From NCBI GenBank assembly GCA_031402865.1, contig JANNST010000052.1:4089-68088 (forward strand): 64,000 bases of DNA, read 5' to 3'. Position 1 is the stretch's first letter. Every line of letters begins with the position of its first letter. Under the pieces are notes generated by a model. That model was not told where the DNA came from. It saw only the letters and a list, made by a program, of their open reading frames with translations, and ran no database searches. The DNA comes from Chloracidobacterium sp. Its GTDB lineage: Bacteria; Acidobacteriota; Blastocatellia; Pyrinomonadales; Pyrinomonadaceae. Positions 2,272-63,791 of the stretch are shown piece by piece. Both the position numbers and the translations under genes were made by a program.

Positions 2272-2371
2272 GAAAGTCGAGAGTCGAGAGTCTAGTGTCG
2301 AGAGACGGATTTAAGAGCTTCGGAGATGTTCACTAGGTTCATCGACTTTTGACTCTTGACTCTCGACTTTC
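2272..2371. repeat. imperfect palindrome of GAGTCGAGAG-type units straddling the histidine-kinase stop codon
   Basis: Arms 2272-2301 and 2342-2371 are reverse complements (26/30 by my count). The right arm encodes the kinase tail [12 protein letters not shown]. The same unit recurs at 58504-58568 and as CTGACT tandems at 11985-12029. Confidence 0.8.
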
Positions 2372-4014
2372 TGACTAACGGGGAGAAGGATCGTGAATGT
2401 CGTACCTTTGCCTGGGTTCGAGCGAACGCTCAGACGGCCGCCGTGGTCGGTAATTATGCCGTAACAGACCGCCAGGCCGAGGCCTGTACCTTCGCCGACC
2501 TCTTTTGTCGTGAAGAAAGGCTCGAAGATCTTTGAAAGGTCTTCGGGCCGGATGCCGACCCCTGTATCTTCGACTTCGATCGCGACGCGGTTGAACTGCC
2601 CCGTGGCCCGGAATGTAAGCGTCCCGCCATCGGGCATGGCATCGATAGCATTTGTTCCGAGTGCAATAACCGCTTGCTGCAGTTGTCCGCCATCGGCATT
2701 GAGCAACGGAAGATCGTCTTCGGCTTCGATCTTTATCTGTATGTTTTCGCCGCGTTTTTGATGCGAGATAAGGTTTGCGGATGACTTCAATATTTCCGCA
2801 ACATCGAGCGGATGCCTGTCACCGGTACGGAGACGGCTGAAATCCAATAAGCCCGTTGTGATGGACTTACAGCGAAATGCCTCGCTCTTGATCAGGCCAA
2901 GATACTCGTTCAGGTCGTCCGAAGCCTCAGAGGCTTCAAATGCTCCCTCTTCGGCCCTTTTTTCTAGAGCTTCCGCACATGCGGCAATTGTCGCGAGCGG
3001 ATTGTTTATTTCATGTACAACGCCTGCAGCAAGCCTGCCGACGGCTGCCAGCTTTTCCGCCCGGCCGACCGCATGAATTGCTTCAACCCGAGCCGTGATG
3101 TCCTCGCCTACGGTAATAACATGGGTAACGTCGCCCGTCTCGTCATCCATCATCGGAACTTTGCTCACCATCCAGTGTTTCGTCGAACCGTCCTCGGCGG
3201 CAGTCTGTTGCTCGATCCTTTCAATTCTTCCGGTCCTAAAGGCACGCTCGAACTCTTCACGTACACGGCCCTCCGGATATCGAGCCAATACGTTAAAGAC
3301 ATTTCGGCCAAGTGCCGCATCGCGTGAGATGCCCTGCACACCTATTTCCCGATGCCTGTTCCAGGTTACGATCCGGAAATCGCGGTCCACCACATAAAGA
3401 GAAACGGGAAGAGCATCCAGGACGGCTTCCGTGAATCGGCGGTGTTCTTCCTTAGCACGATTGATTGAATTATTGATAGCTGCTTCATAGTGGGCGGATA
3501 AATTCACGCTCATTGCGGCCATCTGTGTAGCGGCCTCGATCATGCTGCCTTTGGCCTCGTTAAAATCGCGTTTTGCTGAAAATCCCACAACGATCGCCCC
3601 TTTTATCTCGCCATTGATATGGAGCGGGGCGACGTATTCGAGTTTGTGGCTGCTGCCATTCAATAGAAATGATTCTTCGTTCTCCTGCTTGTACCCGATC
3701 TGGGGAGGCAACAGTTCGAGCCATTTTTCAAACTTCGATTTGGAGAAGGACCGTGGGTCGATCTCGCCCCGGTCGTCGAATGCACAGCTCACGATCCCGA
3801 TATTTTCCAATTCGACAACAAATGCACACATCTCCGCCTCGACGCATTTCTGAATTGCACTGGCCACCCGGCTTGCGACTTTTTTGGGGTGAACAGTAAA
3901 AAGCAGGCTTCTTCCAAGGTCGGAAATGAATCTTAATTCTTGCGAAGAATCGGCCCTTTCAGTTATAGGCGAGAATATCCTGCTCTGTTTTTTTGCGGCA
4001 GACGGGAGTGGCAT
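2311..4014 (-). CDS. sensor histidine kinase with GAF-like and PAS domains (HisKA + HATPase_c)
   Basis: H-box [14 protein letters not shown] boxes ([24 protein letters not shown]) and a PAS-like segment ([18 protein letters not shown]). It lies directly upstream of the NtrC-type regulator. Confidence 0.88.
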
Positions 4015-4212
4015 CGTGGTTTGCGAGAAGCCGAATGGATTACTATTTTCAGTAGTGAACTACCGGTGAGATGGTTGAAATGGCGAACACTGGAACACGT
4101 GTGGGCTTCCTCAGTAATTAGAAACGTTTTTAAACATTTTGTCAACGGTTTTAACTGTCAGGAGATGGTTTGACTGTCTTGATGTTTCAAGCAAGAATGT
4201 GAGTTAACGGTT

Positions 4213-4911
4213 ATGTGGCGAAAAGGAACTTCAACTTTTGGAACTTTGACACGCGTTTGCGTGCTTGCAGGCCTTTTCATCGTTTCGCTGTCCAATATCG
4301 GGGCACAGACTGTCGTTGATAAGACCGTTGCGACCGTCAGTGACGGCACCAGGACCGAGTTGATAACCTACTCGGATCTGCGGTGGCAGTTGGCACTGCA
4401 GCCGAATGTCCAGCTTTCCCCGCCAAGCTCGGAAGACCTCAACAGCGCATTGCAATTGCTGATTAACCAGCGGATCTTTGCACTCGAAGCCGAACGGCTG
4501 CCGAGGTCCGCGCCGACAGATAAAGAGATCGAAGCGGAGATGCGTCGAGTTTTAGCTCAGTTTCCGTCAAACGCCGAATTTGAGAGAAGGCTGAGGATTG
4601 TAGGTTTTGAATCTGTTAAAGACAGTAATCTTGAACGGTTGATAACTCAACGAATCAGTATCGAAAAATACCTCGATTTTCGATTTCGATCCTTTATAGT
4701 CAATACTCCAGAGGATGAAGCAAAGTATTACAAAGAGACCTTCGTTCCTGACTTCCGCCGTCGATTTCCGGGCCTGCTGATGCCGACTCTTGATGAAAAA
4801 CGTGCTGAGATCGACGCCCTTCTTACCGAAACAAAAGTTGTTGTAAATATCGAGGCTTTTCTGGACGACGCAAAGAGAAGGGTCGAAATTGTGATCCTCA
4901 ACGCTGTCTAG
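4213..4911 (+). CDS. SurA N-terminal-domain-like periplasmic chaperone (no PPIase domain seen)
   Basis: 232-aa ORF with a signal-like N-terminus (VCVLAGLFIVSLSNIGAQT). DKTVATVSDG...ITYSDL and the helical remainder resemble SurA_N-type proteins. Assignment is by eye only. Confidence 0.5.
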   Translation: MWRKGTSTFGTLTRVCVLAGLFIVSLSNIGAQTVVDKTVATVSDGTRTELITYSDLRWQLALQPNVQLSPPSSEDLNSALQLLINQRIFALEAERLPRSAPTDKEIEAEMRRVLAQFPSNAEFERRLRIVGFESVKDSNLERLITQRISIEKYLDFRFRSFIVNTPEDEAKYYKETFVPDFRRRFPGLLMPTLDEKRAEIDALLTETKVVVNIEAFLDDAKRRVEIVILNAV

Positions 4912-5028
4912 CGTCCGCCACTCATAAACCCCGATGCGTTATTCAACGTATTAAGCCATAACTTCGCGAATCCGAAGGATTTCATAATATAAACTGAGGC
5001 GACTTAATTCAAGAGTCTGGAGAACTGA

Positions 5029-6699: not shown

Positions 6700-6843
6700 A
6701 TTTTTGCGGTTGATGAGATTTTAACGCTAAGATCGCAAAGTTTTCCGCAAAGGCCGCGAAGTGAAGAGCCGTGCCCGGTAACGCCTAATGAGAATCGGCG
6801 TTCTTGACCCGGCGGGGTACTCATCGTATCATTCTAAGTTCCC

Positions 6844-12809: not shown

Positions 12810-12890
12810 TTGTAGGGGCAGGGCCGTCCCCGCCGATCTGCCTTTCCCAGGTACTAGATCAACGGGCAGCCAAGTATGCTGCCCCTACAA
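12810..12890. repeat. palindromic element with TTGTAGGGGCAG termini
   Basis: ttgtaggggcag (12810-12821) and its exact reverse complement ctgcccctacaa (12879-12890) lie between convergent genes. Confidence 0.75.
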
Positions 12891-13973: not shown

Positions 13974-14053
13974 AAGAAAGTTGGCCGCAAGAAGGCACAA
14001 AAGGTTCGAAAAAAGAAGAAAAAGTTTGTTCGGATTATTAAATTCACTTGTCT

Positions 14054-14476
14054 TTATTTATCAGTACTGCTCAGTGCAAACTTTTTGATCTCGAACCTTT
14101 GGCTTCCGAAGTTTATCAGAAGGCCGTGTTCAATTCGCGACGACCGCAGATAGCCTAGAAGCTGTGCCGTATGTTCACTGATCAGCGTATTACACGCTTT
14201 CACCTCGATAATAAGACAATTCTCAACGAACAGATCGGCGTAGTAATCTCCGAGAACCGTGCCATCCTCGTCTAAAACCTTTAATGGATATTGCTGCTCA
14301 ACACGTACTCCAAGCTTACGCAACCGGTGTGTAAGAGCGTTTTCGTAAACCTTCTCCAAGTGTCCGTAACGGTGGAATTTGTGAATCGCGAACCCCGTTT
14401 CCCGGATAATATCGCACACTTTGAAGATCTGGTCCTTTTCCCCGCCGTCATCCGAAAATAAGCCTTCTAAACTCAT
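14054..14476 (-). CDS. GxxExxY family protein (PD-(D/E)XK-like)
   Basis: Contains the family signature GHLEKVYENAL (G-x-x-E-x-x-Y) and the C-terminal GLLINFG motif. Confidence 0.85.
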   Translation of the reverse strand: MSLEGLFSDDGGEKDQIFKVCDIIRETGFAIHKFHRYGHLEKVYENALTHRLRKLGVRVEQQYPLKVLDEDGTVLGDYYADLFVENCLIIEVKACNTLISEHTAQLLGYLRSSRIEHGLLINFGSQRFEIKKFALSSTDK

Positions 14477-14490
14477 TCAAATCTTCCCGA

Positions 14491-14520
14491 CTTTTTGTGC
14501 TTTTTGTGCCTCTTTGCGGC
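14491..14520. repeat. half-copy of the TTTGTGC/TTTGCGGC repeat family
   Basis: ctttttgtgctttttgtgcctctttgcggc is the same unit as at 19471-19502 and 40857-40884. Confidence 0.7.
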
Positions 14521-14522
14521 CC

Positions 14523-15980: not shown

Positions 15981-16119
15981 AGAAGCGGGGGCAAGCCGCC
16001 CTTCCGAACCTGAAATCTGTGCAAGGTCGATTGATATATTTTACCTTGAAATCAACTTAAATATCTCGAAGTAAGTCTGGATAATTACAGGTTGGGAAGG
16101 GCGGCTTTGCCCCCGCTCT
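15981..16119. repeat. long-loop inverted repeat (AGAAGCGGGGGCAAGCCGCCCTTCC arms, about 90-nt loop)
   Basis: Arms 15981-16005 and 16096-16119 are reverse complements with 2 mismatches. The arm start AGAAGCGGG resembles the perfect palindrome at 42024-42086. Confidence 0.75.
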
Positions 16120-18266: not shown

Positions 18267-19388
18267 TCATTTATCAACCATTATATTACCAAAGGCTAAA
18301 CGGCCGCCGTGCTTGCGAACAAACCCTCCACCCGGCAGTTCGACCAACCGGCCGCTTTTCGGGCTTAGAATCAAACGCTCGATCGATTCGATATGTTTTA
18401 GGCTGATAGAGCGGAGATCGCCGCGGTTTGTGCGTAACCAGGATCGGAGCGTCCGGTACAGCTGGGGTTCTGCGAGTAATTTCAGGTCTTTTATCATCAG
18501 ATCTTTTTGGCTGCCATCCGAGATTCCGCTTTCCGCCTTTCGCGTTACGTCTTCGAGGAGACCGGTCGCCACTGCTCCCGGTTCTGACTGGCGCATCAGA
18601 TCGGCTGTTCGAGCAAGCGTTTCTATTATCTTGGGGTTGAGGTCCGTCAGTACCGGTAACAGTATCTTGCGGACGCGGACACGTTTGAATGACAAATCCT
18701 CATTCATGGTGTCGTAACGGTATTCGACGCCGCATTCACGGCAGAAATTCTCCGTGTCCTTACGTCGCGCCCAGGTGAGGAGCGGGCGGATCAGTAGTTG
18801 AGGAGTGGAGGAGAAGGGGAGAAAGGGAGACGGGGAGATGGGGAGACGCGGAGACACGGAGTCATTGTCTTGTCTGATCTCCGCGTTCCCGTGTCTCCGC
18901 GTCTCCGTGTCACGCATTTCTCGCACCGGCCACATTCCGCTCAGCCCGTCGATGCCGCTGCCGCGAATTAGGTTAAGCAAGAAGGTTTCCGCCTGGTCAT
19001 TCATTGTATGAGCGGTCACAACGCCGTATGCTTTTAGGTTTTCGGCCGTGCGGGTAAGGAAATCGTACCTTGCATCACGGGCGTTCTGTTCGAGATTTCC
19101 TTCAGCCGGGATCGGGCCATGTCCGATCGCGAGTTCGAAGCCCCTTTCGGCCGTCAGATGCTTTATAAACTCCTCGTCGGCATCGCTCTCGTGTCCGCGA
19201 AGCTTGTGATTAAAGTGGGCGGCGACCAGCCGGAGTTTTAATTTATCGCGTTTGCGCAGATCGTCGAGAGCGAGCAAAAGGCTTGAGGAATCGGCACCGC
19301 CGGAGACCGCGACGATCAGTGTTTCGTCGGTAAACGGAAGCCCGAGCTTTCGCCACTCGGTGATCAGATCTCGGACAAACTTGTGCAT
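18267..19388 (-). CDS. tilS: tRNA(Ile)-lysidine synthetase, carrying in-frame repeat insertions
   Basis: PP-loop VAVSGGADSS, NHKLRG, HTMNDQAETFLLNLIRGSG, LIRPLL. The ORF stays intact across the repeats at 18555-18590 and 18798-18915. Confidence 0.9.
   Translation of the reverse strand: MHKFVRDLITEWRKLGLPFTDETLIVAVSGGADSSSLLLALDDLRKRDKLKLRLVAAHFNHKLRGHESDADEEFIKHLTAERGFELAIGHGPIPAEGNLEQNARDARYDFLTRTAENLKAYGVVTAHTMNDQAETFLLNLIRGSGIDGLSGMWPVREMRDTETRRHGNAEIRQDNDSVSPRLPISPSPFLPFSSTPQLLIRPLLTWARRKDTENFCRECGVEYRYDTMNEDLSFKRVRVRKILLPVLTDLNPKIIETLARTADLMRQSEPGAVATGLLEDVTRKAESGISDGSQKDLMIKDLKLLAEPQLYRTLRSWLRTNRGDLRSISLKHIESIERLILSPKSGRLVELPGGGFVRKHGGRLAFGNIMVDK
18555..18590. repeat. copy of the CCGGTCGC(C/T)ACTGCTCCCGGTTCTGACTG element inside tilS
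   Basis: 29 nt match 56598-56626 with one mismatch (my count). Translated in tilS as QSEPGAVATG. Confidence 0.8.
18798..18915. repeat. palindromic GGAGAC(G/A)C-octamer element inserted in frame in tilS
   Basis: Arms 18842-18861 and 18879-18911 include a 17-nt exact reverse complement (cgtgtctccgcgtctcc). The flanking GAGGAGTGGAGGAG also occurs at 63031-63044. Translated as MRDTETRRHGNAEIRQDNDSVSPRLPISPSPFLPFSSTPQ. Confidence 0.8.
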
Positions 19389-19420
19389 TTAAGAGATTAT
19401 AGCCGCAAGCCTGAATTAAT

Positions 19421-19502
19421 AGCCGCAAAAAGGCTCAAAAATCCCAAAAAAGATATTGAGTATATTTCTTACTTTTTGCGCTTTCTGTGCCTTTTTGCGG
19501 CT
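19421..19502. repeat. hairpin of the AGCCGCAAAAAGGC.CA.AAA family
   Basis: The left arm agccgcaaaaaggctcaaaaatcccaaaaaag pairs with the right arm actttttgcgctttctgtgcctttttgcggct. The last 2 nt overlap the argH stop codon. Confidence 0.8.
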
Positions 19503-20883
19503 ATTCCATTTTTTTCTTTGCAGCCAAAAGAGCTTCAGCAACGCGTTTGGGTGATGTTCCGCCGGTTTGGGATTTGCTGGCAAGGGTTTGTTCGAGGCTC
19601 AATGCGTTGAAAACATCAGCTTCGACTTGATCCGAGACCTTCGCTAGATCTTCGAGGCTCATTTGGTGCAGTTCTTTATTCTGTTCGATGGCAGAGAGCA
19701 CAATTCGGCCGACGGTGTCATGCGCGGTGCGGAACGGGACGCCTTTTTTTACGAGGTAATCGGCAAGCTCGGTAGCGTTAAGATAGCCGTTGACGGCGGC
19801 TTCTCGAGTTCTCGCTTCGTTTACGGTCAAATTGTTCAGCACAACAGCCGCGACATTCAGGCACATTCGCACCGTGTCTACCGTGTCGAAAACCGCTTCT
19901 TTGTCCTCCTGCGTGTCCTTGTTGTACGCCAGCGGCAGCCCTTTAAGTATTGCAAGCAAAGCGGTTTGATGGCCGAAGATGCGGCCGGCCTTGCCTCGCA
20001 AAAGCTCAAGCGCGTCTGGATTTTTCTTCTGCGGCATGAGGCTCGAACCGGTAGACACGGCGTCGCTGAGAGTAATAAAGCCGAACTCTGTCGTCGCGTA
20101 AATAATCAGGTCTTCGGCAAGCCGCGAAAGGTGTACCATTATGAGCGAACACGCCCCGACGAATTCGACGGCGAAATCTCGGTCCGAAACGGCGTCGAGA
20201 CTGTTTGCCGAAACGGCATCGAATCCGAGTTCGGCCGCAACGGCTTCGCGGTCGATATTGAAACTAGTTCCGGCAAGCGCGGCCGAGCCGAGCGGCAGAA
20301 TATTCATACGTCGCGCGGCGTCTGACAGTCGTTCGAGATCACGGGACAGCATTTCAAAGTACGCCAGACACCAATGGGTCCAAAGCACGGGCTGTGCACG
20401 CTGAAGGTGTGTGTAGCCGGGCAGGACTGCTTCCTTGTGGCGTTCGGCAGCGGCGATCAGTGCAGCCTGCATACCTTTCGCATCATTTCGAATGTGCTCA
20501 ATCTCGTCACGAAGCCAAAGGCGAAACGCCGTCGCAACCTGATCGTTGCGGCTGCGGCCCGTATGGACTTTTTTTCCGGTGTCGCCGATGAGCTCGACAA
20601 GTCTCGATTCGATAAACGAATGCACATCTTCCGCATCGGAATCCATATAGGCGGGATCGCCAGCGGCTAGTTCGAGTATTGTCCGCAACGCTCCTGTTAG
20701 GCCGGCGTTTTCGTCCTCAGTCAATATTCCCGCCCGCAAGAGTCCATTGGCATGAGCAATACTCGCGCGGACATCGGCGGTTAACAGCCGTTTATCAAAA
20801 CGAAAGGAATTGTTGAATTCTGCGAAGGTTTCATCCGGCTTCCCCGTGAATCTGCCGCCCCAAAGCTGATCGGATTTGTCCAT
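19501..20883 (-). CDS. argH: argininosuccinate lyase
   Basis: Fumarate-lyase signature GSSLMPQKKNPD, with full-length ArgH-like sequence (LWGGRF, TGRSRNDQVAT). Confidence 0.97.
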   Translation of the reverse strand: MDKSDQLWGGRFTGKPDETFAEFNNSFRFDKRLLTADVRASIAHANGLLRAGILTEDENAGLTGALRTILELAAGDPAYMDSDAEDVHSFIESRLVELIGDTGKKVHTGRSRNDQVATAFRLWLRDEIEHIRNDAKGMQAALIAAAERHKEAVLPGYTHLQRAQPVLWTHWCLAYFEMLSRDLERLSDAARRMNILPLGSAALAGTSFNIDREAVAAELGFDAVSANSLDAVSDRDFAVEFVGACSLIMVHLSRLAEDLIIYATTEFGFITLSDAVSTGSSLMPQKKNPDALELLRGKAGRIFGHQTALLAILKGLPLAYNKDTQEDKEAVFDTVDTVRMCLNVAAVVLNNLTVNEARTREAAVNGYLNATELADYLVKKGVPFRTAHDTVGRIVLSAIEQNKELHQMSLEDLAKVSDQVEADVFNALSLEQTLASKSQTGGTSPKRVAEALLAAKKKME

Positions 20884-20935
20884 TTGCGTTAATTGTAGAT
20901 TCGAAGCGGCGTCGTTGCCAACTTGTGTTTTTCTT

Positions 20936-20996
20936 CTTTGCTACTTTGCGTCTCTGCGGGAGAAGATTTTTCCCGCAAAGACGCAAAGCTGCAAAG
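20936..20996. repeat. hairpin of CTTTGC/GCAAAG-type units in the argH-argG divergent intergenic region
   Basis: ctttgctactttgcgtctctgcggga (20936-20961) is the near reverse complement of tcccgcaaagacgcaaagctgcaaag (20971-20996). Confidence 0.8.
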
Positions 20997-21059
20997 CAGA
21001 AGAGGCCGTTTGTCGAACAACTTGATTGATCGGGGAATTGCATTTAACCTATTTCGAGA

Positions 21060-24462: not shown

Positions 24463-24491
24463 TCGTTGAGCATAGCAGAAGGGAAATTTTA

Positions 24492-24657
24492 ACGCAGAGA
24501 CGCAGAGACGCAGAGACGCTGAGGAAGGAAGGATTAGCCACGGATGAACACAGATGGACACAGATGAATCTCGATATTTTCTGGTTTTCCTATCCGTGTT
24601 CATCCGTGTAAATCTGTGGATGAAATTCTTTTCTCTCTGCGTCTCCGCGTCTCGGCG
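24492..24657. repeat. nested palindrome: outer GCAGAGAC octamers, inner CACGGATGAACACAGATG arms
   Basis: The outer arm acgcagagacgcagagacgcagagacgctgag pairs with ctctctgcgtctccgcgtctcggcg. The inner arm ccacggatgaacacagatggacacagatg pairs with tatccgtgttcatccgtgtaaatctgtgg. Confidence 0.85.
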
Positions 24658-24667
24658 GTGAAAAATC

Positions 24668-26873: not shown

Positions 26874-27515
26874 TGCGAAAGCCCGCACGAAGTAAGGGCG
26901 ATACACTCAACGAACCCAATCATCCGTTTCAAACGGCACATCGTCCTGACAATAGAGAACGTAGTTCACAGCCGCCTCGACGTGGGGCGGCTTCCACAAA
27001 TAGCGCCGACTCCGGCCCCGGGACCAAACTCGCTCCGTAGCTCCGACTAGTCCGAGTTCCCTCAACCGTTTCGTCGCAAATGCTTTCATCGCATCAGCAA
27101 TCCTTTCGGGCTTCGCAGCAGCGGATGCTACTGCATGAACATGATTCGTGCGCACGTTCAGCGCATGGAGCCCATAATTTCTTTGGCCGCACAGCATCTC
27201 AATAGCGTCCGTAACGGCTCGTCGCTGGTCGGTTTTTAGTATTACAGGAGACTGCGCCATTTTTTCCTGCATACGTTCTTGAAGCGGCAGATTCGGATCA
27301 AGTTTTACTGTGCCCGGTACATCACGGTTGCTTCGGTTGATCGAAGATCGGTCATCGCCGTGCAGCCACGTTCCGAATGTCCGAAAGGTCATCAGGTATG
27401 CAAGGGGAAACTCGTTTTCTCCGTAGATATCAAATCCGTAGTCGTCGAGCATTTTGAGTTTGAGCGTGCCTCCTTCACTTGAGCATATCGCCCTTACTTC
27501 GTGCGGGCTTTCGCA
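26874..27515 (-). mobile_element. RAYT-like unit: Y1 (HUH) transposase gene bracketed by inverted 35-nt REP-like repeats
   Basis: TGCGAAAGCCCGCACGAAGTAAGGGCGATACACTC at 26874-26908 has its reverse complement at 27481-27515 (33/35 identical). Confidence 0.7.
26907..27452 (-). CDS. IS200/IS605-family Y1 transposase-like protein (REP-associated tyrosine transposase candidate)
   Basis: HUH motif NHVHAV and a C-terminal Tyr region NYVLYCQ. About 181 aa from the internal ATG 27452. The longer track ORF (to 27611) runs through the flanking repeat and the GH92 3' end. Confidence 0.72.
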   Translation of the reverse strand: MLDDYGFDIYGENEFPLAYLMTFRTFGTWLHGDDRSSINRSNRDVPGTVKLDPNLPLQERMQEKMAQSPVILKTDQRRAVTDAIEMLCGQRNYGLHALNVRTNHVHAVASAAAKPERIADAMKAFATKRLRELGLVGATERVWSRGRSRRYLWKPPHVEAAVNYVLYCQDDVPFETDDWVR

Positions 27516-30500: not shown

Positions 30501-30648
30501 TCGCACCGGGAAAAGTGTGGCCATGGCCGCCGGTGCCGATGAACGGGTTGACGTGGCGGGTGTAGTCACGGGTTTGTCCCGCGACAGCAGGCGCTAGGCA
30601 TAGAAGAACTAAAACGCAGAGACGCTGAGACGCTGAGAGAACTTTCAT
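27523..30648 (-). CDS. GH92 family alpha-mannosidase with C-terminal F5/8 type C (discoidin) domain; in-frame repeat insertion
   Basis: NPFIGTGGHGHTFPGA, GFSHTHLSGTG, FSLWDTFRAAHPL and GNEPSHH are GH92 hallmarks. The C-terminal about 150 aa are discoidin-like. Confidence 0.9.
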   Translation of the reverse strand: MKVLSASQRLCVLVLLCLAPAVAGQTRDYTRHVNPFIGTGGHGHTFPGATMPFGMVQLSPDTRIDNWDGSSGYHYSDDIIYGFSHTHLSGTGIPDGCDILFMPTVGEPQFFAKEGDKSVNGYASKFSHANEKAEPGYYSVKLDDDGILAELTSTKRVGLHRYTFPRTDHANLILDLRWRDKWLQTDVSVNGAQRRIEGVRRSTSWAKNQTVYFVAEFSQLFTGGQIGNGLESTGLMGPSAQATSNGGLLSLQFQTVPEEPLLLKVAISYVSIEGARKNLAAELPHWDFDKVRADAKAAWNKELTKIEVSGGTNDQTTNFYTALYHTIIQPNVFNDVDGRYKGHDGKVHSLPGYEMQKAARVSSPTVRKGSPLLTAQHGSPPRPRNAATPPKTGGELQNHYTVFSLWDTFRAAHPLYTIIDQKRTVDFINTFIRIYEQGGRLPVWELWGEETDTMIGYHAASVIADAMAKSIKGFDYEKAYAAAKHSAELDHFGLAAYKKRGYISMEDENESVSRTLEYAYNDWCIAQMQASLTRSGDRNIEQLPPAFKDGDFRYRARHFENLFDTKTGFFRPKKNGVFVEPFAPNEVTFGFTEGNSWQYSFFVPHDVTRLMELMGGREKFVAKLDELFTTDQKLAGREQADLTGLIGQYAHGNEPSHHITYLYNYAGEPWKTQKYVRKIMDEFYKNAPDGLIGNEDCGQMSAWYILSAGGFYPVAPGSPVYALGTPLFPEMTYRLENGKTFTIRAKHVSPKNIYILNAKLNGSPYKKAFITHEELMRGGVLEFAMIDQPVETAFTEFPLSSIHGVATAVPVIDGERLFNDKTIVTMRKTNPDAMIFYTTDGSTPTRSSKTYFEPVVLRAAATVKAFTYFSPGNESPIVDAVFAKRPNDWTVKVVSGYSTQYTGGGDNAIIDGIRGTVNFASGEWQGVQGKPYDAIIDLKRETEIKELGGSFLQVAGPWIWMPDRIEFETSSDGTNFTKAAEIKPSFPRREMTPKIKEFTQTISPAKARYVRIRAYNFGKIPSWHPGAGGDPWIFVDEIIIR
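29458..29585. repeat. composite palindromic element in frame within the GH92 gene
   Basis: Contains perfect small hairpins cccctcc-tgtctta-ggagggg and ccgcg-ttt-cgcgg. The core matches 57091-57136 in reverse orientation. 29558-29584 is a degenerate look-alike of the RAYT-flanking REP. Confidence 0.7.
30614..30640. repeat. GCAGAGAC/GCTGAGAC octamer repeat inside the GH92 signal-peptide codons
   Basis: acgcagagacgctgagacgctgagaga is translated on the minus strand as LSASQRLCV within MKVLSASQRLCVLVLLCLAPAVAG. Confidence 0.75.
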
Positions 30649-30665
30649 AGCTTTTTAAGGAAGAT

Positions 30666-30750
30666 TTTTGCCCGCGAATAACACGAATTGCCGCGAATAT
30701 CTCTTAAGAGATTTCTTATTCGTGTTTATTCGCGTAATTCGCGGGCAAAA
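30666..30750. repeat. hairpin of the TTTTGCCCGCGAATAA family
   Basis: ttttgcccgcgaataacacgaattgccgcgaata (30666-30699) pairs with tattcgtgtttattcgcgtaattcgcgggcaaaa (30717-30750), between the GH92 start and the GH20 stop. Confidence 0.8.
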
Positions 30751-33058: not shown

Positions 33059-33201
33059 GGCGGAAACACGACTGGTAGGGAGTGTGTTCTTCAAGATTCG
33101 ACGAAAGAGGCCCAGTCGCTACGAATTCCGGCTACGACACGGAAATCCTTTCCCGCTCGCTGACGCCGGGAAACACACTTCCTACCGGTCGTGTTTCCGC
33201 C
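33059..33201. repeat. GGCGGAAACAC hairpin element, copy 1 (long loop)
   Basis: The left arm is 33059-88. The right arm 33174-33201 reads CACACTTCCTACCGGTCGTGTTTCCGCC. The 83-nt interior contains agtcgctacgaattccggctacgac. Confidence 0.85.
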
Positions 33202-33211
33202 TGTGCGTTCT

Positions 33212-37343: not shown

Positions 37344-37406
37344 CTTTGTGTTGAAAGAAAAGGCTTTCAACACAAAGGACACCAAGCTGGCACAAAGGAC
37401 GCAAAT
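37344..37406. repeat. CTTTGTG/CACAAAG-type hairpin plus trailing units
   Basis: ctctttgtgttgaaag pairs with ctttcaacacaaagga, and is followed by caccaagctggcacaaaggacgcaaa. Confidence 0.75.
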
Positions 37407-40815: not shown

Positions 40816-40884
40816 AGCCGCAGAGATGCGCAAAAAGCACAAATATGAAGAGAAATTTTGTGCCTTTTGTGCCTTTTTGCGGCT
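40816..40884. repeat. hairpin of the AGCCGCA.A.A.GC.CAAAA family
   Basis: agccgcagagatgcgcaaaaagcacaaa pairs with tttgtgccttttgtgcctttttgcggct. Same family as 19421-19502 and 14491-14520. Confidence 0.8.
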
Positions 40885-56425: not shown

Positions 56426-56591
56426 TCTAACAGACTATGCAAGAGCGGCGGCGGAGCCGCGAGAATCACTAGGCCGCTGAACGGAAAAGCATAGCCCTTC
56501 CGCAGATAGACGGGCGTAACCCGAAGAACAGTCGCCTCCCACCACACGTACGCGAAGCGTTACTACCCATCCTCAGGCAGGAGGGTGTTTT

Positions 56592-56626
56592 AGGAGGCCG
56601 GTCGCTACTGCTCCCGGTTCTGACTG
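56592..56626. repeat. CCGGTCGCTACTGCTCCCGGTTCTGACTG element at the 3' end of the DUF3010-like gene
   Basis: Matches 18555-18590. It provides the last codons LLSQNREQ and the stop of the 56605-57033 ORF. Confidence 0.8.
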
Positions 56627-57033
56627 AGGAGGCAGTAGGCGGCTCCGTAGGCTTCGTGCTGGAATTTGGCGATCGGCAGTTCCGTGAATTCGATATTGGC
56701 GGCTGACACGGCCTTGCGGATGGTCGCGGGCGGGATTAGGATGACGTCTTGACGGCAGGTTTGAATAAGCCCTTCGAGTTTGAAGGTGATCGTGCCGCCT
56801 TTCATTCGGCCCTTCGAAAGACGCTCGCGTATGCCGACTTGCTCAATGCCGTTGTCGTCGAAGAACGCCTGGATGGCTGCCTGATATTCCCGAACTTCGC
56901 TCTGGCTTTTGGGATCGGCAAGAACTAGCCGCAGGACGCCGGTCGGGATCACCTCAAACCTCCCGGCGTGCCCATCCAGTACAACGAAACGGGCTTCGTT
57001 CTTATCGAGGTCGATTCCGCAAATTCTTGACAT
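56605..57033 (-). CDS. DUF3010-like protein (tentative)
   Basis: 142 aa. The N-terminus MSRICGIDLDKNEARFVVLDG resembles DUF3010 as I remember it. No catalytic motifs identified. Confidence 0.45.
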   Translation of the reverse strand: MSRICGIDLDKNEARFVVLDGHAGRFEVIPTGVLRLVLADPKSQSEVREYQAAIQAFFDDNGIEQVGIRERLSKGRMKGGTITFKLEGLIQTCRQDVILIPPATIRKAVSAANIEFTELPIAKFQHEAYGAAYCLLSQNREQ

Positions 57034-57090
57034 AGGTCGAGCGGCGGCAAGTAGTCGGTAAATTCAATACAGAAGTATATTACAGACCTA

Positions 57091-57177
57091 CCTCCCCATC
57101 CGCGAAACGCGGCCTCGCCTCCTTACCACGAGGGAGTTTTTTTTCAAACCCCGTCCCTACCGCTAGCGGTTCTGACT
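57091..57177. repeat. two adjacent repeat units: the CCGCGAAACGCGG-core element and a CCCTACCGCTAGCGGTTCTGAC unit
   Basis: 57091-57136 (cctccccatccgcgaaacgcggcctcgcctccttaccacgagggag) matches the reverse complement of 29465-29513. 57151-57177 resembles the GGTTCTGACT element. Confidence 0.7.
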
Positions 57178-57210
57178 TGTGATAATCTGAGTGCATTTAG
57201 CGAGAGTTAC

Positions 57211-58303: not shown

Positions 58304-58327
58304 CTGCAAAGACGCGAAGACGCAAAG
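58304..58327. repeat. GCAAAGAC/GCGAAGAC octamer units
   Basis: ctgcaaagacgcgaagacgcaaag lies just after the M50 stop. Related to 20971-20996. Confidence 0.65.
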
Positions 58328-62076: not shown

Positions 62077-62083
62077 ACAGGGA

Positions 62084-62180
62084 TTCTTTGTGTTCGTTGC
62101 GAAAAACTTAGTGAACTTTGTGTTGAAAAAAATCATATACACAAAGAACACAGTGGAAGACACGGAACAGCACAAAGTTT
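62084..62180. repeat. cluster of CTTTGTG / CACAAAG units
   Basis: ttctttgtgttcg...gaactttgtgttg is followed by cacaaagaacacag...cagcacaaagttt. Arranged A-B / rcA-rcB rather than as a simple hairpin. Confidence 0.65.
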
Positions 62181-62195
62181 CGTGGCGTAACTGGT

Positions 62196-63791
62196 ATGAT
62201 AATCGCATTTATGGAGAAATTTTTCGACCGGTTGGACGCACTTGCGGGAATTGAATCGGTGAACCCGATAGTTAAATGGCTTGAGCGCATTGCGTTTGTA
62301 TTTCTCACGTTGATGCTCGTTTCGGCGCCGCATTCCATCGCGGCTACGCAGACGGCCTGGATTACGGGAATGTTTGTCTGGATCGTCAGGCTGTTTTTCA
62401 AGCCGCGAGTGAGTTTTAAGTTCGGGGCTCTGGACGCTGCACTTTGGGGATTATTCGGGTGGTCGGTGATATCCTCACTCGTTTCTTACGACCCTGCGAC
62501 CTCGATCGATAAGCTTCGCGGCGTTGCTCTTTTTCTGATCGTCTATTTCGTAATCTACAACCTGAGAAATCTTCGGGCGGTGTATTTCGCGGCGTTCATT
62601 CTGATATTTTCGTGCATGGTAAATGTCGTTTGGACGCCGGTACAGCGTTTGATCGGCCGCGGTGTCGAGATTCACGGTCTGAGGACCGACAGCCCGCTCG
62701 CAAAAGCCCTGCTACGGGAAGCCGACGCTCTGCTGGCAGCCGACGGAATAAAGCTGCACACACCCGAAGATGTCGCGGCTCATATTGAAGAACACGAAGT
62801 CACAAAGATCAAATTCTACCGGCCTGATTACGAGTTTTCAGTCGATGTAAAAAAGGCAGATATTTTGCCCGGAGCATCCGCGATGGAAAAACTCGGAATC
62901 GAAAGCTGGAAAAAGAGCCGCAACTGGCGGTCAAGCGGTTTTTACGGCCATTACGTAACCTATGCCGAGGTGTTGCAGCTTATCGCGTCGCTTGCTTTTG
63001 GGTTGCTGATCGCGGGCTTATTGCGGAGTCGAGGAGTGGAGGAGGAAAGGAGTGGAGGCGTCCAGAACCTTTCGAATCGTTCCTCTTTATCCCTCCACTC
63101 CTTCACTCCTTTACTCGTCATAGTTGTCCTCGCTATGGCCTTTGCCCTTCTGCTAACTGTCACACGGGCGCCGCAACTTGCCTTTGTGATCTCGGCCGCT
63201 GTGATCGTGATTATTGGGCTCGGGAGAAAATGGGTCTTTCGAGCAGCGGTTATCGGACTGCCGGTCGTGATCATCGGCCTGCTGTTTTTGCAGCAAAGCC
63301 GTCAGGTCGGCTTTTTTGATACCAACGACGATTCAATACGCTGGCGCCAGACCGTCTGGCGCGAGGGGTTTGAGCTTTGGACGAAAGAGCCGCGCCATTT
63401 CGTGTTCGGAGTCGGCATGGATTCGATCAAGAAATACGCGAAGGAATGGCATCTGTTCGACGACGGGCGATTGAACATGGGCCATTTTCATTCGACGCCG
63501 CTGCAGCTTTTAGTTGAAAGAGGTTTGCCGGCTTTGCTCATCTGGCTGATAGTTTTGGGAATTTACGCACGAACGTTGTGGAAAGGGCTGAAGGTTAGCG
63601 GCGATTGGCGTTCACGCGGCATTCTACTCGGCTGTCTCGGCGGCACGATCGGTTTTTTTGCGAGCAGCTTGGTTCACTACAACCTGGGCGACCAGGAGGT
63701 TGCGATGGTATTTTTTATACTCATGGGCTTTGGCCTCAAAGTCAGCGAAATGGGCAAGAACGAAGATGGTGAGAAGTTATCAGCTATCTGA
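62196..63791 (+). CDS. O-antigen ligase (Wzy_C) family membrane protein with a soluble insert and an in-frame repeat insertion
   Basis: Multiple TM helices. The Wzy_C-like region is WRQTVWREGFELW...GVGMDS...HFHSTPLQLLVERGLPALL. An alternative ATG lies at 62211. Confidence 0.72.
   Translation: MIIAFMEKFFDRLDALAGIESVNPIVKWLERIAFVFLTLMLVSAPHSIAATQTAWITGMFVWIVRLFFKPRVSFKFGALDAALWGLFGWSVISSLVSYDPATSIDKLRGVALFLIVYFVIYNLRNLRAVYFAAFILIFSCMVNVVWTPVQRLIGRGVEIHGLRTDSPLAKALLREADALLAADGIKLHTPEDVAAHIEEHEVTKIKFYRPDYEFSVDVKKADILPGASAMEKLGIESWKKSRNWRSSGFYGHYVTYAEVLQLIASLAFGLLIAGLLRSRGVEEERSGGVQNLSNRSSLSLHSFTPLLVIVVLAMAFALLLTVTRAPQLAFVISAAVIVIIGLGRKWVFRAAVIGLPVVIIGLLFLQQSRQVGFFDTNDDSIRWRQTVWREGFELWTKEPRHFVFGVGMDSIKKYAKEWHLFDDGRLNMGHFHSTPLQLLVERGLPALLIWLIVLGIYARTLWKGLKVSGDWRSRGILLGCLGGTIGFFASSLVHYNLGDQEVAMVFFILMGFGLKVSEMGKNEDGEKLSAI
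63031..63110. repeat. GGAGTGGAGG-type palindrome in frame within the O-antigen-ligase-like gene
   Basis: gaggagtggaggaggaaaggagtggagg (63031-63058) pairs with cctctttatccctccactccttcactcct (63082-63110). Translated as RGVEEERSGGVQNLSNRSSLSLHSFTP. Confidence 0.75.

What the first reader, a model, noticed from the sequence alone, without database searches (positions are those of the whole stretch)
2272..63110. Exceptionally dense, multi-family palindromic repeat landscape at gene junctions
Short GC-rich palindromes or tandem-octamer repeats occupy almost every intergenic gap longer than about 40 nt. Families seen by eye:

- GAGTCGAGAG / CTGACT: 2272-2371, 11985-12029, 58504-58568
- TTTGTGC...TTTGCGGCT: 14491-14520, 19421-19502, 40816-40884
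- GCAAAGAC / GCAGAGAC / GGAGACGC octamers: 6734-6762, 18798-18915, 20936-20996, 24492-24657, 30614-30640, 58304-58327
- CTTTGTG / CACAAAG: 37344-37406, 62084-62180
- TTGTAGGGGCAG: 12810-12890
- AGAAGCGGG...: 15981-16119, 42024-42086
- TTTTGCCCGCGAATA: 30666-30750
- CACGGATGAACACAGATG: inner part of 24492-24657
- GGTTCTGACT: 18555-18590, 56592-56626, 57151-57177
- CCGCGAAACGCGG core: 29465-29513, 57091-57136
- TTTACC units: 49937-49962
- CTGGAAC units: 52968-53033
- GGAGTGGAGG: 63031-63110

They inflate many six-frame ORFs with spurious N-terminal extensions. Their diversity, with only one candidate mobilising enzyme in view, raises two questions: how are they propagated, and do they act as terminators, insulators or protein-binding sites?
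Basis: seen in the sequence. Interest (0 to 1): 0.6.

Follow-up and report, generated by a model that had tools for sequence, protein, structure and literature searches.

The report
Nuclease-linked hairpin repeats crowd gene junctions
The short palindromes that fill the gaps between genes in this soil and sediment acidobacterium are real and are a mixture of hairpin repeat families. Two families are gene-less copies of small cassettes whose full forms carry a nuclease or transposase gene, and the nuclease partner (GxxExxY) has no known function and is, as far as I could find, not described in print.

Summary
**Observation.** Confirmed, but overstated. The window (a Pyrinomonadaceae MAG, Acidobacteriota) has 13 strong hairpins against 0.13 expected, and 25 tandem arrays of 7-11 nt units against 8. 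About half to two thirds of gaps of 40 nt or more are occupied, not almost all. Five listed stretches lie in frame inside genes, not between them.

**What it is.** A composite of four classes:
- **A:** hairpins whose arms are 3-5 tandem 8-10-nt units (CRCR plus purines, RCC cap).
- **B:** REP/REPIN-like palindromes.
- **C:** heptamer or octamer hairpins (AGTCGAG, GGAGNNNN) with no partner found.
- **D:** plain GC stem-loops.

**Partner genes.**
- Class A arms bracket every GxxExxY (PF13366, Cas4-like fold) gene examined: 8 of 8 here and in relatives, and 51 of 64 in metagenomes (control 3 of 64).
- Arm sequence tracks the protein (Mantel r 0.66).
- Class B arms bracket a gene with the Y1 (RAYT-like) transposase fold.

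**Dynamics.**
- One junction (lptE|holA) is empty, hairpin-filled or cassette-filled in different relatives, needing at least 8 changes on the tree.
- One gene-less copy keeps remnants of the gene.
- Hairpins start a median 8 nt after stop codons and show terminator-like polarity.

**Limits.** Mobility and nuclease action are inferred.

The parts
13983..14521 (-). Class A full cassette. Arms are 13983-14012 and 14492-14521 (units TTTTGTGCC, cap GGCC). They enclose the GxxExxY (PF13366/TIGR04256) nuclease gene at 14054-14476. The cassette sits in the lptE|holA spacer.
   Evidence: Inverted repeat I23. Pfam E 6e-29 and TIGR04256 E 8e-33. Bracketing shown. The junction is empty in about 26 relatives. 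The fold is Cas4-like.
19418..19505 (.). Class A gene-less hairpin (AATAGCCGCAAAAAGG... / ...TTTTTGCGGCTATT) between argH and tilS. The argH stop codon lies in the GGCTA cap.
   Evidence: An orthologous hairpin is present in at least 14 relatives, with units evolving in concert.
40816..40884 (.). Class A gene-less hairpin of the same family as 14492 and 19473, sharing the exact 17-mer TGTGCCTTTTTGCGGCT. The stop codon of the upstream dehydrogenase gene lies in the cap.
   Evidence: It holds 37 9-mers shared with metagenomic GxxExxY arms.
24487..24663 (.). Class A nested double hairpin. The outer arms are ACGCAGAG x4 and the inner arms are CACAGATGAA x3 (about 24535-24625).
   Evidence: It holds 46 9-mers shared with GxxExxY arms. 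Other copies with different loops occur in the source metagenome.
20929..21003 (.). Class A-type palindrome (CTTTGCGT units) with a 3-nt loop and reversed (pyrimidine-first) polarity. It lies in the divergent argH<>argG promoter region and is conserved in sequence in at least 8 relatives, so it may be an operator.
30605..30750 (.). A solo ACGCTGAG array (30605-30640) followed by a hairpin at 30666-30750 with CGCGAATAA / CACGAATTG units.
37344..37406 (.). Class A-type CACAAAGGA units downstream of ileS.
62084..62180 (.). Class A-type CACAAAG palindrome with pyrimidine-first polarity, at a divergent junction.
   Evidence: It holds 15 shared 9-mers.
6734..6762 (.). A solo CGCAAAG array upstream of the tRNA gene at 6844-6928.
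58304..58327 (.). A solo GCAAAGAC array.
26874..27515 (-). Class B full element. REP-like 37-nt inverted repeats (95% complementary) enclose a gene with the Y1 HUH transposase fold at 26907-27452. It resembles the RAYT/TIRYT genes.
   Evidence: Inverted repeat I2. Y1_Tnp E 0.0026 and REP_Tyr_transpos E 2e-4, both below the curated cut-offs. The top 30 PDB fold matches are all IS200/IS605 TnpA or RAYT 4er8. Six homologues in relatives are bracketed the same way.
33780..33854 (.). Class B doublet of the same REP, read through in frame inside rluD.
   Evidence: Exact 25-mer shared with 27486-27510 (D12). About 45 extra residues in the PseudoU_synth_2 domain.
33058..33202 (.). Class B REPIN-like hairpin (AGGCGGAAACACGA..GGTAGGGAGTGTGT). 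Further copies lie at 35130-35220 and 40338-40410.
   Evidence: I1, I5, I11, I12. The same family brackets a Y1-transposase paralogue in L010. It replaces the local hairpin at other junctions in L011, L021 and L057.
12810..12890 (.). A GTAG-tagged palindrome (TTGTAGGGGCAG...CTGCCCCTACAA) at a convergent junction.
2272..2371 (.). Class C heptamer hairpin (AGTCGAG x4 / CTCGACT). The histidine-kinase ORF ends inside it. A related copy lies at 58504-58568, and there is a solo CTGACTA array at 11985-12029.
   Evidence: No 9-mers are shared with GxxExxY arms.
18798..18915 (-). A GGAGNNNN octamer palindrome translated in frame inside tilS, between GM.VRE and LIRPLL. Its inner units are CRCGGAGA.
   Evidence: The same TilS site carries inserts of other units in most relatives and none in others.
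63031..63116 (+). A GGAGTGGA octamer palindrome translated in frame in a Wzy_C (O-antigen-ligase-like) membrane protein.
15981..16119 (.). Class D GC-rich stem-loop with a 67-nt loop downstream of ftsH. A similar one lies at 42024-42086.
   Evidence: The same junction carries other hairpin families in 23 relatives.
56585..57178 (-). The DUF3010 gene (56605-57033) flanked by direct repeats of about 42 nt (56585-56626 and 57137-57178), plus the palindrome at 57090-57136. The direct repeat also lies in frame in tilS (18549-18590), and the palindrome core lies in the GH92 gene (29465-29513).
   Evidence: D6, I7.

Best explanation
**What it is.** The landscape is a composite of small hairpin-ended repeat elements that accumulate just downstream of stop codons. 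It is not one phenomenon.

**Class A**
- Anatomy: an outer RCC cap, then 3-5 tandem 8-10-nt units of the form CRCR plus purines, a loop, and the mirror image.
- I read it as the gene-less form of a cassette whose full form carries a GxxExxY gene in the loop. GxxExxY is a minimal Cas4/RecB-like PD-(D/E)XK nuclease.

**Class B**
- REP/REPIN-like palindromes that bracket a RAYT/TIRYT-like Y1 transposase gene.

**Diversity**
- Each genome holds several paralogues of each gene, each with its own arms. This would generate the many families seen.

**Shown**
- the gene-arm association;
- co-variation of arms with the protein;
- repeated gain, loss or replacement at one junction;
- decay of a full cassette to a gene-less hairpin;
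- turnover much faster than the flanking genes;
- in-frame copies inside genes;
- anchoring at stop codons, with purine-first polarity.

**Inferred**
- The nuclease binds the iterated units, which are spaced about one helical turn apart, on single-stranded or extruded hairpin DNA, and cuts there.
- The cut drives copying into new sites or conversion of old ones.
- The host tolerates or exploits the hairpins as 3'-end structures (terminators or stabilisers).
For: **The gene-arm link**
- All 8 GxxExxY genes in the window and the 80 related loci lie between inverted tandem-unit arms.
- Of 24 long-loop inverted repeats in 1.3 Mb, 8 enclose the Y1-transposase-like gene, 7 enclose GxxExxY and 1 encloses a 23S_rRNA_IVP gene. 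Shuffles gave 0 in 0.38 Mb.
- In 64 metagenomic GxxExxY genes with at least 200 nt on both flanks, 51 are bracketed, against 3 of 64 with shuffled flanks. Of 48 left arms, 35 carry the RCCRC cap.
- A Bacteroides finegoldii copy has CACAGAGGA-unit arms.
- Arm 6-mer similarity rises with protein identity: Mantel r 0.66, reached by 0 of 2000 permutations.
- 9-mers from the metagenomic arms cluster exactly on the window's class A hairpins.

**Dynamics at the lptE|holA junction**
- It is empty (gap 2-23 nt) in about 26 relatives, holds gene-less hairpins of several unit families in about 13, and holds the full cassette in 5.
- At least 8 state changes are needed on a 47-taxon tree.
- The 141-nt loop of L063 keeps the first ~10 and last ~22 codons of the gene.
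- L041, L042 and L049 have flanks 93-97% identical but different hairpin content.

**Enzymes**
- The nuclease model has pLDDT 90. Its best fold match is Cas4 SSO0001. E41, E91 and K93 are invariant and D81 is at least 90% conserved.
- The Y1 fold of the second gene is supported.

**Position and polarity**
-.
Against: - No transposition, cleavage or excision was observed.
- No direct target-site duplication was found. Instead, filled alleles carry an inverted copy of the flank, which a plain cut-and-paste model does not predict.
- Arm-protein co-variation is confounded by host phylogeny.
- The two source samples that hold this strain show no polymorphism at the hairpins.
- Class C (AGTCGAG, CTGACTA, GGAGNNNN) and several minor families have no partner gene in view.
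- The Y1 gene scores below Pfam and NCBIfam cut-offs.
- A later check recorded in this scan's notes found no movement among near-identical strains. It also found the same arm end across phyla for only 1 gene in 28.
Confidence: 0.55

Rival explanations
1. The hairpins are chiefly host-selected 3'-end structures: intrinsic-terminator substitutes or mRNA stabilisers. They arise and grow in place by replication slippage (gain and loss of units) and quasi-palindrome template switching (arm-to-arm copying). The small nuclease and transposase genes are secondary lodgers that insert into hairpin loops.
For: - Hairpins begin a median of 8 nt after the upstream stop codon, and 59 of 107 lie within -30 to +10 nt of it.
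- The 5' arm is purine-rich and the 3' arm pyrimidine- or T-rich in 39 of 43 independent gene-downstream junction groups, p 3e-8. This is the polarity expected if the second arm must give a weak rU:dA hybrid.
- Both flanks are A/T-rich.
- At the folP|ftsH junction there is a continuum from 15-nt to 42-nt arms built of AAAAGTG-type units.
- Units evolve in concert within a hairpin: identity 0.87 within against 0.73 between orthologous hairpins, reached by 0 of 2000 permutations.
- Filled alleles mirror the host flank, as outward growth of a palindrome would.
- Canonical terminators are not enriched, so something else may do the job.
Against: - This does not explain why one arm superfamily is tied to one protein family across phyla, or why arms co-vary with the protein.
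- It does not explain exact 17-mers shared by copies at unrelated junctions.
- It does not explain copies translated in frame inside tilS, rluD, GH92 and the Wzy gene, where a terminator would be harmful.
- Many relatives do without any hairpin at the same junction.
- G.U against A.C mismatches on the sense strand are 87 against 75, so there is no sign of RNA-level selection in one direction.
Confidence: 0.25
2. This is a domesticated nuclease-repeat partnership of the Ssn/NTS kind. The GxxExxY nuclease cuts single-stranded DNA at its dispersed hairpins to modulate recombination, transformation or repair. The repeats then spread by recombination rather than by transposition.
For: - The architecture (repeat - small single-domain nuclease gene - repeat, plus many gene-less copies) matches what is in print for the Ssn GIY-YIG nucleases and their NTS/SRM repeats (PMC11893778).
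- The closest folds are ssDNA or end-processing nucleases: Cas4, lambda exonuclease, RecE and the AddAB nuclease domain.
- The catalytic residues are conserved across 51 homologues, which argues for a maintained activity.
Against: - One full cassette is a pseudogene (L051) and one is an internal deletion (L063), as expected of decaying selfish copies.
- The cassette is present at one junction in only 5 of 47 relatives.
- There is no functional evidence at all.
Confidence: 0.12
3. Some of the palindromes are operators for DNA-binding regulators, with the tandem units serving as phased binding sites.
For: - The argH<>argG palindrome (20929-21003) has a 3-nt loop.
- It lies in a divergent promoter region.
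- It has the reverse polarity.
- It is nearly invariant in sequence in at least 8 relatives, while other hairpins turn over.
Against: - With 240 distinct units in 1.3 Mb, this cannot hold generally.
- The same junction carries an unrelated GC-rich palindrome in L014 and L020.
- No regulator was identified.
Confidence: 0.05

Closest known systems
REP / REPIN elements with their RAYT gene (REPtron), and the TIR-flanked TIRYT variant described in Acidobacteria (Bertels and Rainey 2011, PMC3116915; Di Nocera et al. 2013, PMC3733652)
   Same: - Class B: dispersed palindromes of 30-37 nt, singly and as hairpin-forming doublets.
- The same repeat brackets a single-copy gene with the HUH Y1 transposase fold.
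- Copies also lie inside genes.
- Class A shares the overall logic: a gene bracketed by the repeat that is otherwise dispersed without the gene.
   Different: - The class B protein is below the curated RAYT and IS200 HMM cut-offs.
- The GTAG tag is internal (GGTAGGGAG, GAAGTAAGGG), not terminal.
- The class A partner is a PD-(D/E)XK nuclease, not an HUH enzyme.
- Class A arms are internally periodic tandem units rather than a fixed palindrome.
Ssn GIY-YIG single-strand nucleases and their NTS/SRM hairpin repeats (Chenal et al. 2025, PMC11893778)
   Same: - A small single-domain nuclease gene flanked on both sides by the hairpin repeat.
- The repeat is dispersed in many gene-less copies.
- There are many enzyme-repeat pairs that appear to co-evolve.
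   Different: - A different nuclease superfamily: PD-(D/E)XK with a Cas4-like fold, against GIY-YIG.
- The arms are built of iterated 8-10-nt units.
- No biochemical or genetic data exist for GxxExxY.
Cyanobacterial STRR (short tandemly repeated repetitive) heptamer hairpins (mentioned in PMC2670836; original description by Mazel et al. 1990, recalled from my own knowledge)
   Same: - Intergenic hairpins whose arms are tandem repeats of about 7 bp.
- Their function is unknown. They have been proposed to stabilise transcripts or to couple translation between genes.
- The class C units (RGTCRRN) resemble the STRR heptamers in kind.
   Different: - A different phylum.
- Here the periods range from 7 to 11.
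- One subclass is tied to a nuclease gene, and I found no such link reported for STRR.
Rickettsia palindromic elements (RPE; Ogata et al. 2000, from my own knowledge; discussed in PMC3733652)
   Same: Palindromic repeats inserted in frame in housekeeping genes and translated as extra surface segments. Here this applies to tilS, rluD, the GH92 gene and the Wzy_C gene.
   Different: - The sequences are unrelated.
- Most copies here are intergenic.
- Candidate partner enzymes are in view here.
23S rRNA intervening sequences that carry an ORF (the 23S_rRNA_IVP / Avd-like four-helix-bundle family, PF05635; PMC10053308)
   Same: A long stem with a small ORF in the loop. One relative (L010 1291-1807) has a PF05635 gene between inverted GATGAAG-unit arrays.
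   Different: - It is not in rRNA here.
- There is only one example in the data.

Membership tests
REP/REPIN-RAYT (REPtron) | Short imperfect palindromes dispersed many times in extragenic space, often as inverted doublets. | tested here: met
   Class B has copies at 26874, 27479, 33780-33854, 33058-33202, 35130-35220 and 40338-40410. The same families occur in relatives at other junctions.
REP/REPIN-RAYT (REPtron) | A RAYT gene (HUH motif plus catalytic Tyr, IS200/IS605 fold) flanked by the REPs. | tested here: met
   HVH (HUH motif, window residues 104-106) and a C-terminal Tyr segment (NYVLY). All top 30 PDB fold matches are IS200/IS605 TnpA or RAYT 4er8. Bracketing is seen in 6 of the 7 loci examined (window plus 5 relatives; the L029 copy is truncated and unbracketed).
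REP/REPIN-RAYT (REPtron) | The protein reaches the curated RAYT or IS200 family thresholds. | tested here: not met
   NF047646 scores 21.2 bits against a cut-off of 80. NF033573 scores 20.6 against 55. PF01797 scores 18.3 against 23. There was no PDB sequence hit, even with a profile. I therefore file it as RAYT/TIRYT-like, not as a member.
REP/REPIN-RAYT (REPtron) | A conserved GTAG tetranucleotide at one end of the REP. | tested here: inconclusive
   GTAG or GTAA is present but internal (CGGTAGGGAG, GAAGTAAGGG). Only 12810-12890 starts with TTGTAGGGG.
[quoted passage not shown] | Terminal inverted repeats plus a direct target-site duplication, matching the ends of an autonomous transposon. 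| tested here: inconclusive
   The arms match those of the gene-bearing cassette, and one gene-less copy is an internal deletion of it. No direct duplication was seen at the lptE|holA junction. Instead there is an inverted copy of the flank.
Ssn/NTS nuclease-repeat pairs | A single-domain GIY-YIG nuclease. | tested here: not met
   The protein is PF13366/TIGR04256 with a Cas4-like PD-(D/E)XK fold. It works like an Ssn/NTS pair in its architecture but is not a member.
Ssn/NTS nuclease-repeat pairs | The nuclease gene is flanked on both sides by the hairpin repeat, which is dispersed without the gene. | tested here: met
   8 of 8 and 51 of 64 genes are bracketed. The window holds about 10 gene-less class A copies for 1 gene.
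Ssn/NTS nuclease-repeat pairs | The enzyme binds and cuts its own repeat in single-stranded DNA. | not testable with these tools
   This needs purified protein and oligonucleotides.
Rho-independent (intrinsic) terminators | A GC-rich stem with a short loop, followed at once by a T-run, at gene 3' ends. | tested here: not met
   The consensus scan of 12001-32000 found 27 sites against 27.7 +/- 5.4 in shuffles. Only 16159-16130 looks canonical. The hairpins have 25-40-nt A/T-rich arms and loops of up to 140 nt.
Rho-independent (intrinsic) terminators | Transcripts end at the element. | not testable with these tools
   No RNA run holds this organism. Position and polarity are compatible.
Cyanobacterial STRR hairpins | Tandem repeats of about 7 bp arranged so that they form intergenic hairpins. 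| tested here: met
   2272-2371 and 58504-58568 (AGTCGAG), and many heptamer hairpins in relatives. This is a resemblance of form only. The phylum differs and no sequence relation was tested.
Known Rfam RNA families | A match at the gathering threshold. | tested here: not met
   Only a tRNA at 6844-6928 matched.

The most novel reading that the evidence does not exclude
GxxExxY (PF13366) nucleases, a very large family listed as 'function unknown', together with their iteron-like tandem-unit hairpin arms, form a phylum-spanning class of nuclease-repeat elements distinct from REP/RAYT and Ssn/NTS. Each paralogue recognises its own 8-10-nt unit. The element spreads or converts sites through a hairpin or fold-back intermediate that mirrors the host flank. 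Its decayed copies supply most of the multi-family intergenic palindromes in Pyrinomonadaceae, and possibly the long-unexplained STRR-type hairpins elsewhere.
Probability: 0.3. Interest if true: 0.85.

Novelty: new variant of a known kind. Interest (0 to 1): 0.62.

Why it matters
- **A testable role for a large protein family.** The multi-family palindromes of this group would gain a concrete origin, and a protein family with no assigned function (PF13366/TIGR04256; listed as 'Unknown' in the 2012 PD-(D/E)XK survey, PMC3424549) would gain a hypothesis: a small nuclease paired with a repeat it recognises.
- **Possible tools.** Such pairs have proved useful as sequence-specific ssDNA nucleases in the Ssn case.
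- **Genome evolution.** The elements insert next to, and even inside, essential genes (tilS, rluD, between lptE and holA; between fabD and fabG in a Sphingomonas record). They turn over much faster than the flanking genes.
- **Annotation and assembly.** They affect gene-start calling and operon structure, and the source metagenome's contigs break at several of them in MAG assembly.
- **An unreported property.** The purine-first polarity rule is a simple feature of these hairpins that I found described nowhere. It bears on how transcription ends in a phylum where canonical terminators are not enriched.

Tried and rejected
- **Sliding-window folding energy.** MFE in 100-nt windows did not separate intergenic from coding sequence because of GC content. 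I dropped it in favour of a single-helix finder.
- **RNA evidence.** No RNA run holds the organism.
- **Strain polymorphism.** Laying the source metagenome's contigs was noisy. It showed other copies of the arms with different loops, but no polymorphism between the two samples that hold this strain.
- **RNA-level selection.** G.U against A.C mismatches on the sense strand gave 87 against 75, which is not significant.
- **Polarity reversal at divergent junctions.** After collapsing orthologous junctions only 2 against 2 groups remain (Fisher p 0.07), so this is only suggestive.
- **Partner gene for class C.** A search for inverted heptamer or octamer arrays 200-1600 nt apart found only the L010 IVP gene, the Sphingomonas GxxExxY gene and an unrelated acetyltransferase.
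- **More PF05635 examples.** A viral-contig scan with the IVP protein found nothing, and there were none in the loci held.
- **Sequence searches of PDB.** These gave nothing for either enzyme. Fold searches were needed.
- **Literature.** Searches for acidobacterial palindromes, STRR and GxxExxY found no description of the class A association. Elhai et al. 2008 is not held.
- **Rejected readings.**
  - CRISPR-like arrays: there are no spacers.
  - Riboswitches or other known RNAs: no Rfam match.
  - Chance composition: excluded by the shuffles.

Full report
**Source and setting.** The window is a chromosome stretch of a Pyrinomonadaceae bacterium (Blastocatellia, Acidobacteriota), with about 52% G+C.
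- Its ArgG is 93% identical to that of MAGs labelled Chloracidobacterium or Pyrinomonadaceae.
- It was assembled from a freshwater-sediment metagenome, and no RNA run holds it.
- It carries ordinary housekeeping genes: tilS, argH, argG, ftsH, folP, lptE, holA, ileS, lspA, lgt, rluD and clpS, plus glycoside hydrolases and sigma-54 regulators.
  - 80 loci (1.23 Mb) around argG from related genomes;
  - 80 metagenome loci around GxxExxY genes.

- All listed stretches read as stated.
- A single-helix finder gives 13 hairpins of score 16 or more, against 0.13 in dinucleotide shuffles.
- TRF gives 25 arrays of period 6-11, against 8.0 +/- 2.6.
- The related loci hold 144 such hairpins and 330 arrays with 240 distinct canonical units. 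Periods run from 7 to 11, with 7 and 9 commonest. About half of the hairpins (76 of 157) have a TRF-detectable array in an arm. The trait is therefore family-wide, and the window (2.0 hairpins per 10 kb) is above the family mean but not exceptional.
- Two claims need trimming:
  - Only 18 of 35 gaps of 40 nt or more hold a hairpin or array by strict detection.
  - Five listed stretches are read through in frame inside genes rather than lying between them.

**Anatomy: four classes.**
- *Class A.* It has an outer cap (GCC, AGCC, TTAGCC or AACC), then three to five tandem units of 8-10 nt that begin CRCR and continue purine-rich (CGCAAAAAGG, CACAAAAGG, CGCAGAGA, CACAGATGAA, CGCAAAGA, CACAAAGGA), then a loop of 3-140 nt and the mirror image.
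- *Class B.* These are fixed REP/REPIN-like palindromes (GCCCGCACGAAGTAAGGGCGATA and AGGCGGAAACACGA..GGTAGGGAGTGTGT).
- *Class C.* Heptamer or octamer units without the CRCR start (AGTCGAG, CTGACTA, GGAGTGGA).
- *Class D.* Plain GC-rich stem-loops (15981-16119, 42024-42086).
- No hairpin matches an Rfam family.

**The partner genes.** This is the main result.
- All seven homologues in the related loci are bracketed in the same way. Three of them sit at other genomic sites and have other units: CGCAGATRRA, CACAGATRRA and CACAGAGNN.
- An unbiased list of long-loop inverted repeats (loop 250-1600 nt) in 1.3 Mb has 24 entries. Eight enclose the Y1-transposase-like gene, seven enclose GxxExxY, and one encloses a PF05635 (23S rRNA IVS protein) gene in GATGAAG-unit arms. 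Shuffles gave none.
- I then fetched 80 metagenome loci with a GxxExxY alignment. Of 64 genes with at least 200 nt on both sides, 51 are bracketed, against 3 of 64 when the flanks are shuffled. Nearly all arms are of the class A design, and 35 of 48 left arms show the RCCRC cap.
- In named organisms:
  - a Bacteroides finegoldii copy between radA and an FAD protein has CACAGAGGA-unit inverted arms;
  - a Sphingomonas copy is wedged between fabD and fabG, with CGCGAAGG units;
  - the Prevotella and Fusobacteria copies are flanked by direct repeats instead.
- 9-mers taken only from the metagenomic arms cluster in the window at 6661-6761, 13981-14004, 14491-14557, 19399-19521, 20922-20987, 24491-24671, 37311-37398, 40818-40977 and 62084-62186. 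They do not cluster on classes B, C or D.
- Arm similarity rises steadily with protein identity: 6-mer Jaccard goes from 0.002 at 20-40% identity to 0.39 above 85%. Mantel r is 0.66, reached by 0 of 2000 permutations. Host phylogeny is a confounder here.

**What the proteins are.**
- *GxxExxY.* The model (51-sequence alignment, pLDDT 90, pTM 0.83) is a compact PD-(D/E)XK core.
  - Its best solved relatives by fold are Cas4 SSO0001, then lambda exonuclease, RecE and the AddAB/AdnAB nuclease domains. These enzymes work on single strands or ends.
  - G38, E41, Y44, E91 and K93 are invariant, and D81 is at least 90% conserved, so the active site looks intact.
  - No solved structure is related by sequence.
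- *ORF 26907-27452.*
  - It has an HVH (HUH) motif and a C-terminal Tyr segment.
  - It hits Y1_Tnp, REP_Tyr_transpos and transpos_IS200 only below their cut-offs.
  - Its model's top 30 fold matches are all IS200/IS605 TnpA proteins or the E. coli RAYT.
  - Homologues in six loci are bracketed by REP-like repeats. In L010 a paralogue is bracketed by the very family that forms the window's hairpins at 33058, 35130 and 40338.
  - This fits the TIR-flanked 'TIRYT' genes reported from Acidobacteria (PMC3733652).

**Evidence of gain, loss and decay at the lptE|holA junction.**
- It is a 2-23-nt spacer in about 26 relatives.
- It holds gene-less hairpins of at least six unit families in about 13 relatives, a class B REP in two, and the full GxxExxY cassette in five: the window, L040, L060, L072, and L051 as a pseudogene.
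- On a 47-taxon tree from five flanking proteins, filled against empty needs at least 8 changes.
- L063 has the cassette's arms around a 141-nt loop that still encodes the first ~10 and last ~22 residues of the nuclease (tblastn E 9e-10). A gene-less hairpin can therefore arise by internal deletion of a full cassette.
- L041, L042 and L049 have flanking genes 93-97% identical, yet carry CACAGAT units, a truncated remnant and CGCAGAT units respectively. The change is present in every unit of both arms, and the loops are unrelated.
- At the argH|tilS junction, units are more alike within a hairpin (0.87) than between orthologous hairpins (0.73), reached by 0 of 2000 permutations. Either units are homogenised in place, or whole hairpins are replaced from a genome-wide pool.
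- At the folP|ftsH junction, 24 genomes carry a hairpin, but of at least five families, including class B.

**An oddity at the ends.** In filled alleles the bases next to the holA start codon (CAT AAGAAA... on the plus strand) are an inverted copy of the end of lptE (...TTTCTT). Empty alleles lack this.
- I saw no direct target-site duplication.
- An inverted flank copy is what a fold-back or template-switch intermediate would leave. It is also what outward growth of a palindrome would leave.
- I cannot tell the two apart.

**Position and polarity.**
- In same-direction junctions the hairpin begins a median of 8 nt after the upstream stop codon (quartiles 2 and 23), while the distance to the next start is loose.
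- Several caps contain the stop codon itself (argH at 19501, the dehydrogenase at 40883).
- On both strands the 5' arm is purine- or A-rich and the 3' arm pyrimidine- or T-rich. After collapsing orthologous junctions this gives 39 groups against 4 downstream of genes (p 3e-8). At divergent junctions it is 2 against 2, and both divergent hairpins in the window are pyrimidine-first.
- This polarity is what a bidirectional terminator-like structure needs, but it is also simply the canonical orientation of the cassette.
- Sense-strand G.U against A.C mismatches (87 against 75) show no one-directional RNA selection.
- Canonical terminators are not enriched.

**In-frame copies.**
- TilS carries about 40 extra residues encoded by the 18798-18915 palindrome, plus a second insert from the 18549-18590 repeat.
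- The same TilS site holds inserts of other unit families in most relatives, and none in L043, L056, L070, L010 and others.
- RluD, the GH92 enzyme and the Wzy_C protein carry similar inserts.
- This mirrors the Rickettsia palindromic elements and argues against a purely terminator origin.

**Mechanism, with odds.**
- *Selfish or semi-domesticated hairpin-ended elements (0.55).* I judge it most likely that classes A and B are such elements, maintained by their own small enzymes, and that the host tolerates them at gene ends, where they may double as 3'-end structures.
  - The unit period of 8-10 nt, near one helical turn, suggests that several nuclease protomers bind phased sites on one face of a hairpin or cruciform. 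This step is inferred.
- *In-place evolution of host terminators, with the genes as lodgers (0.25).* This accounts for the position, the polarity, the size continuum and the mirrored flanks. It does not account for the cross-phylum gene-arm link or the in-frame copies.
- *An Ssn-like domesticated nuclease-repeat system (0.12).* This shares the architecture (PMC11893778).
- *Operator function (0.05).* This is plausible only for 20929-21003.

**Relation to earlier notes of this scan.**
- I found the GxxExxY link before consulting the notes. They report the same association in many other genomes.
- A later check recorded there found 62% of 2,274 PF13366 loci lying between inverted repeats. It also found no movement among near-identical strains, and named Ssn as the nearest work in print.
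- My data agree on the association.
- My data add:
  - the junction series;
  - the deletion derivative;
  - turnover between genomes 93-97% identical;
  - the polarity rule;
  - the concerted-unit statistic.
- These notes are leads, not independent support.

**Verdict.**
- The multi-family landscape resolves mostly into two enzyme-linked repeat systems: one known in kind (REP/RAYT-like), and one apparently undescribed in print (GxxExxY with tandem-unit arms).
- Class C remains unexplained.

Noticed in passing
L010:1291-1807: A PF05635 (23S rRNA intervening-sequence protein, Avd-like four-helix bundle; E 7e-16) gene lies between inverted arrays of GATGAAG units, with 11.6 copies on one side. 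It may be a second small-gene family that lives in tandem-unit hairpins. There is only one example in the data held.
   Followed up: partly
window 56585-57178, 18549-18590: The DUF3010 gene (56605-57033, minus strand) is flanked by direct repeats of about 42 nt (GG.CCGGTCGC.ACTGCTCCCGGTTCTGACTG). The same repeat is translated in frame in tilS (QSEPGAVATGLLE) and forms the C-terminus of the DUF3010 protein.
   Followed up: no
window 20929-21003: The palindrome in the divergent argH<>argG region is almost invariant in at least 8 relatives, while other hairpins turn over. It has the reverse polarity and a 3-nt loop, so it may be an arginine-regulon operator.
   Followed up: partly
L163 (Sphingomonas parapaucimobilis NZ_CP155749.1) 1453-1905: A GxxExxY gene is wedged between fabD and fabG in the fatty-acid synthesis operon, with CGCGAAGG units upstream and an inverted array inside its own 3' end.
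   Followed up: partly
window 7157-8221: A 354-aa ORF with no Pfam match contains an internal tandem duplication of 270 nt (7169-7423 against 7439-7693, 70-78% identical), plus GCC-rich repeats.
   Followed up: no
window 48082-48705 and 22529-22798: A ParD/ParE toxin-antitoxin pair sits directly after the sigma-54 activator gene. A second, solitary ParE-like gene lies downstream of argG.
   Followed up: no
window 53751-55374: A two-gene module of an IrrE/ImmA-type metallopeptidase (Peptidase_M78) and a DUF4411 (PIN-like) protein, with overlapping reading frames.
   Followed up: no
window 6844-6928: A tRNA gene (Rfam 61 bits) lies just downstream of the solo CGCAAAG array at 6734-6762.
   Followed up: no
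window 12001-32000 (source metagenome contigs): Logan contigs of the source run break at several of the repeats (24515/24637, 27482-27509). Word depth rises five- to eight-fold over the ACGCAGAG and CCGCGAAACGCGG elements. These repeats therefore fragment short-read assemblies of this group.
   Followed up: partly
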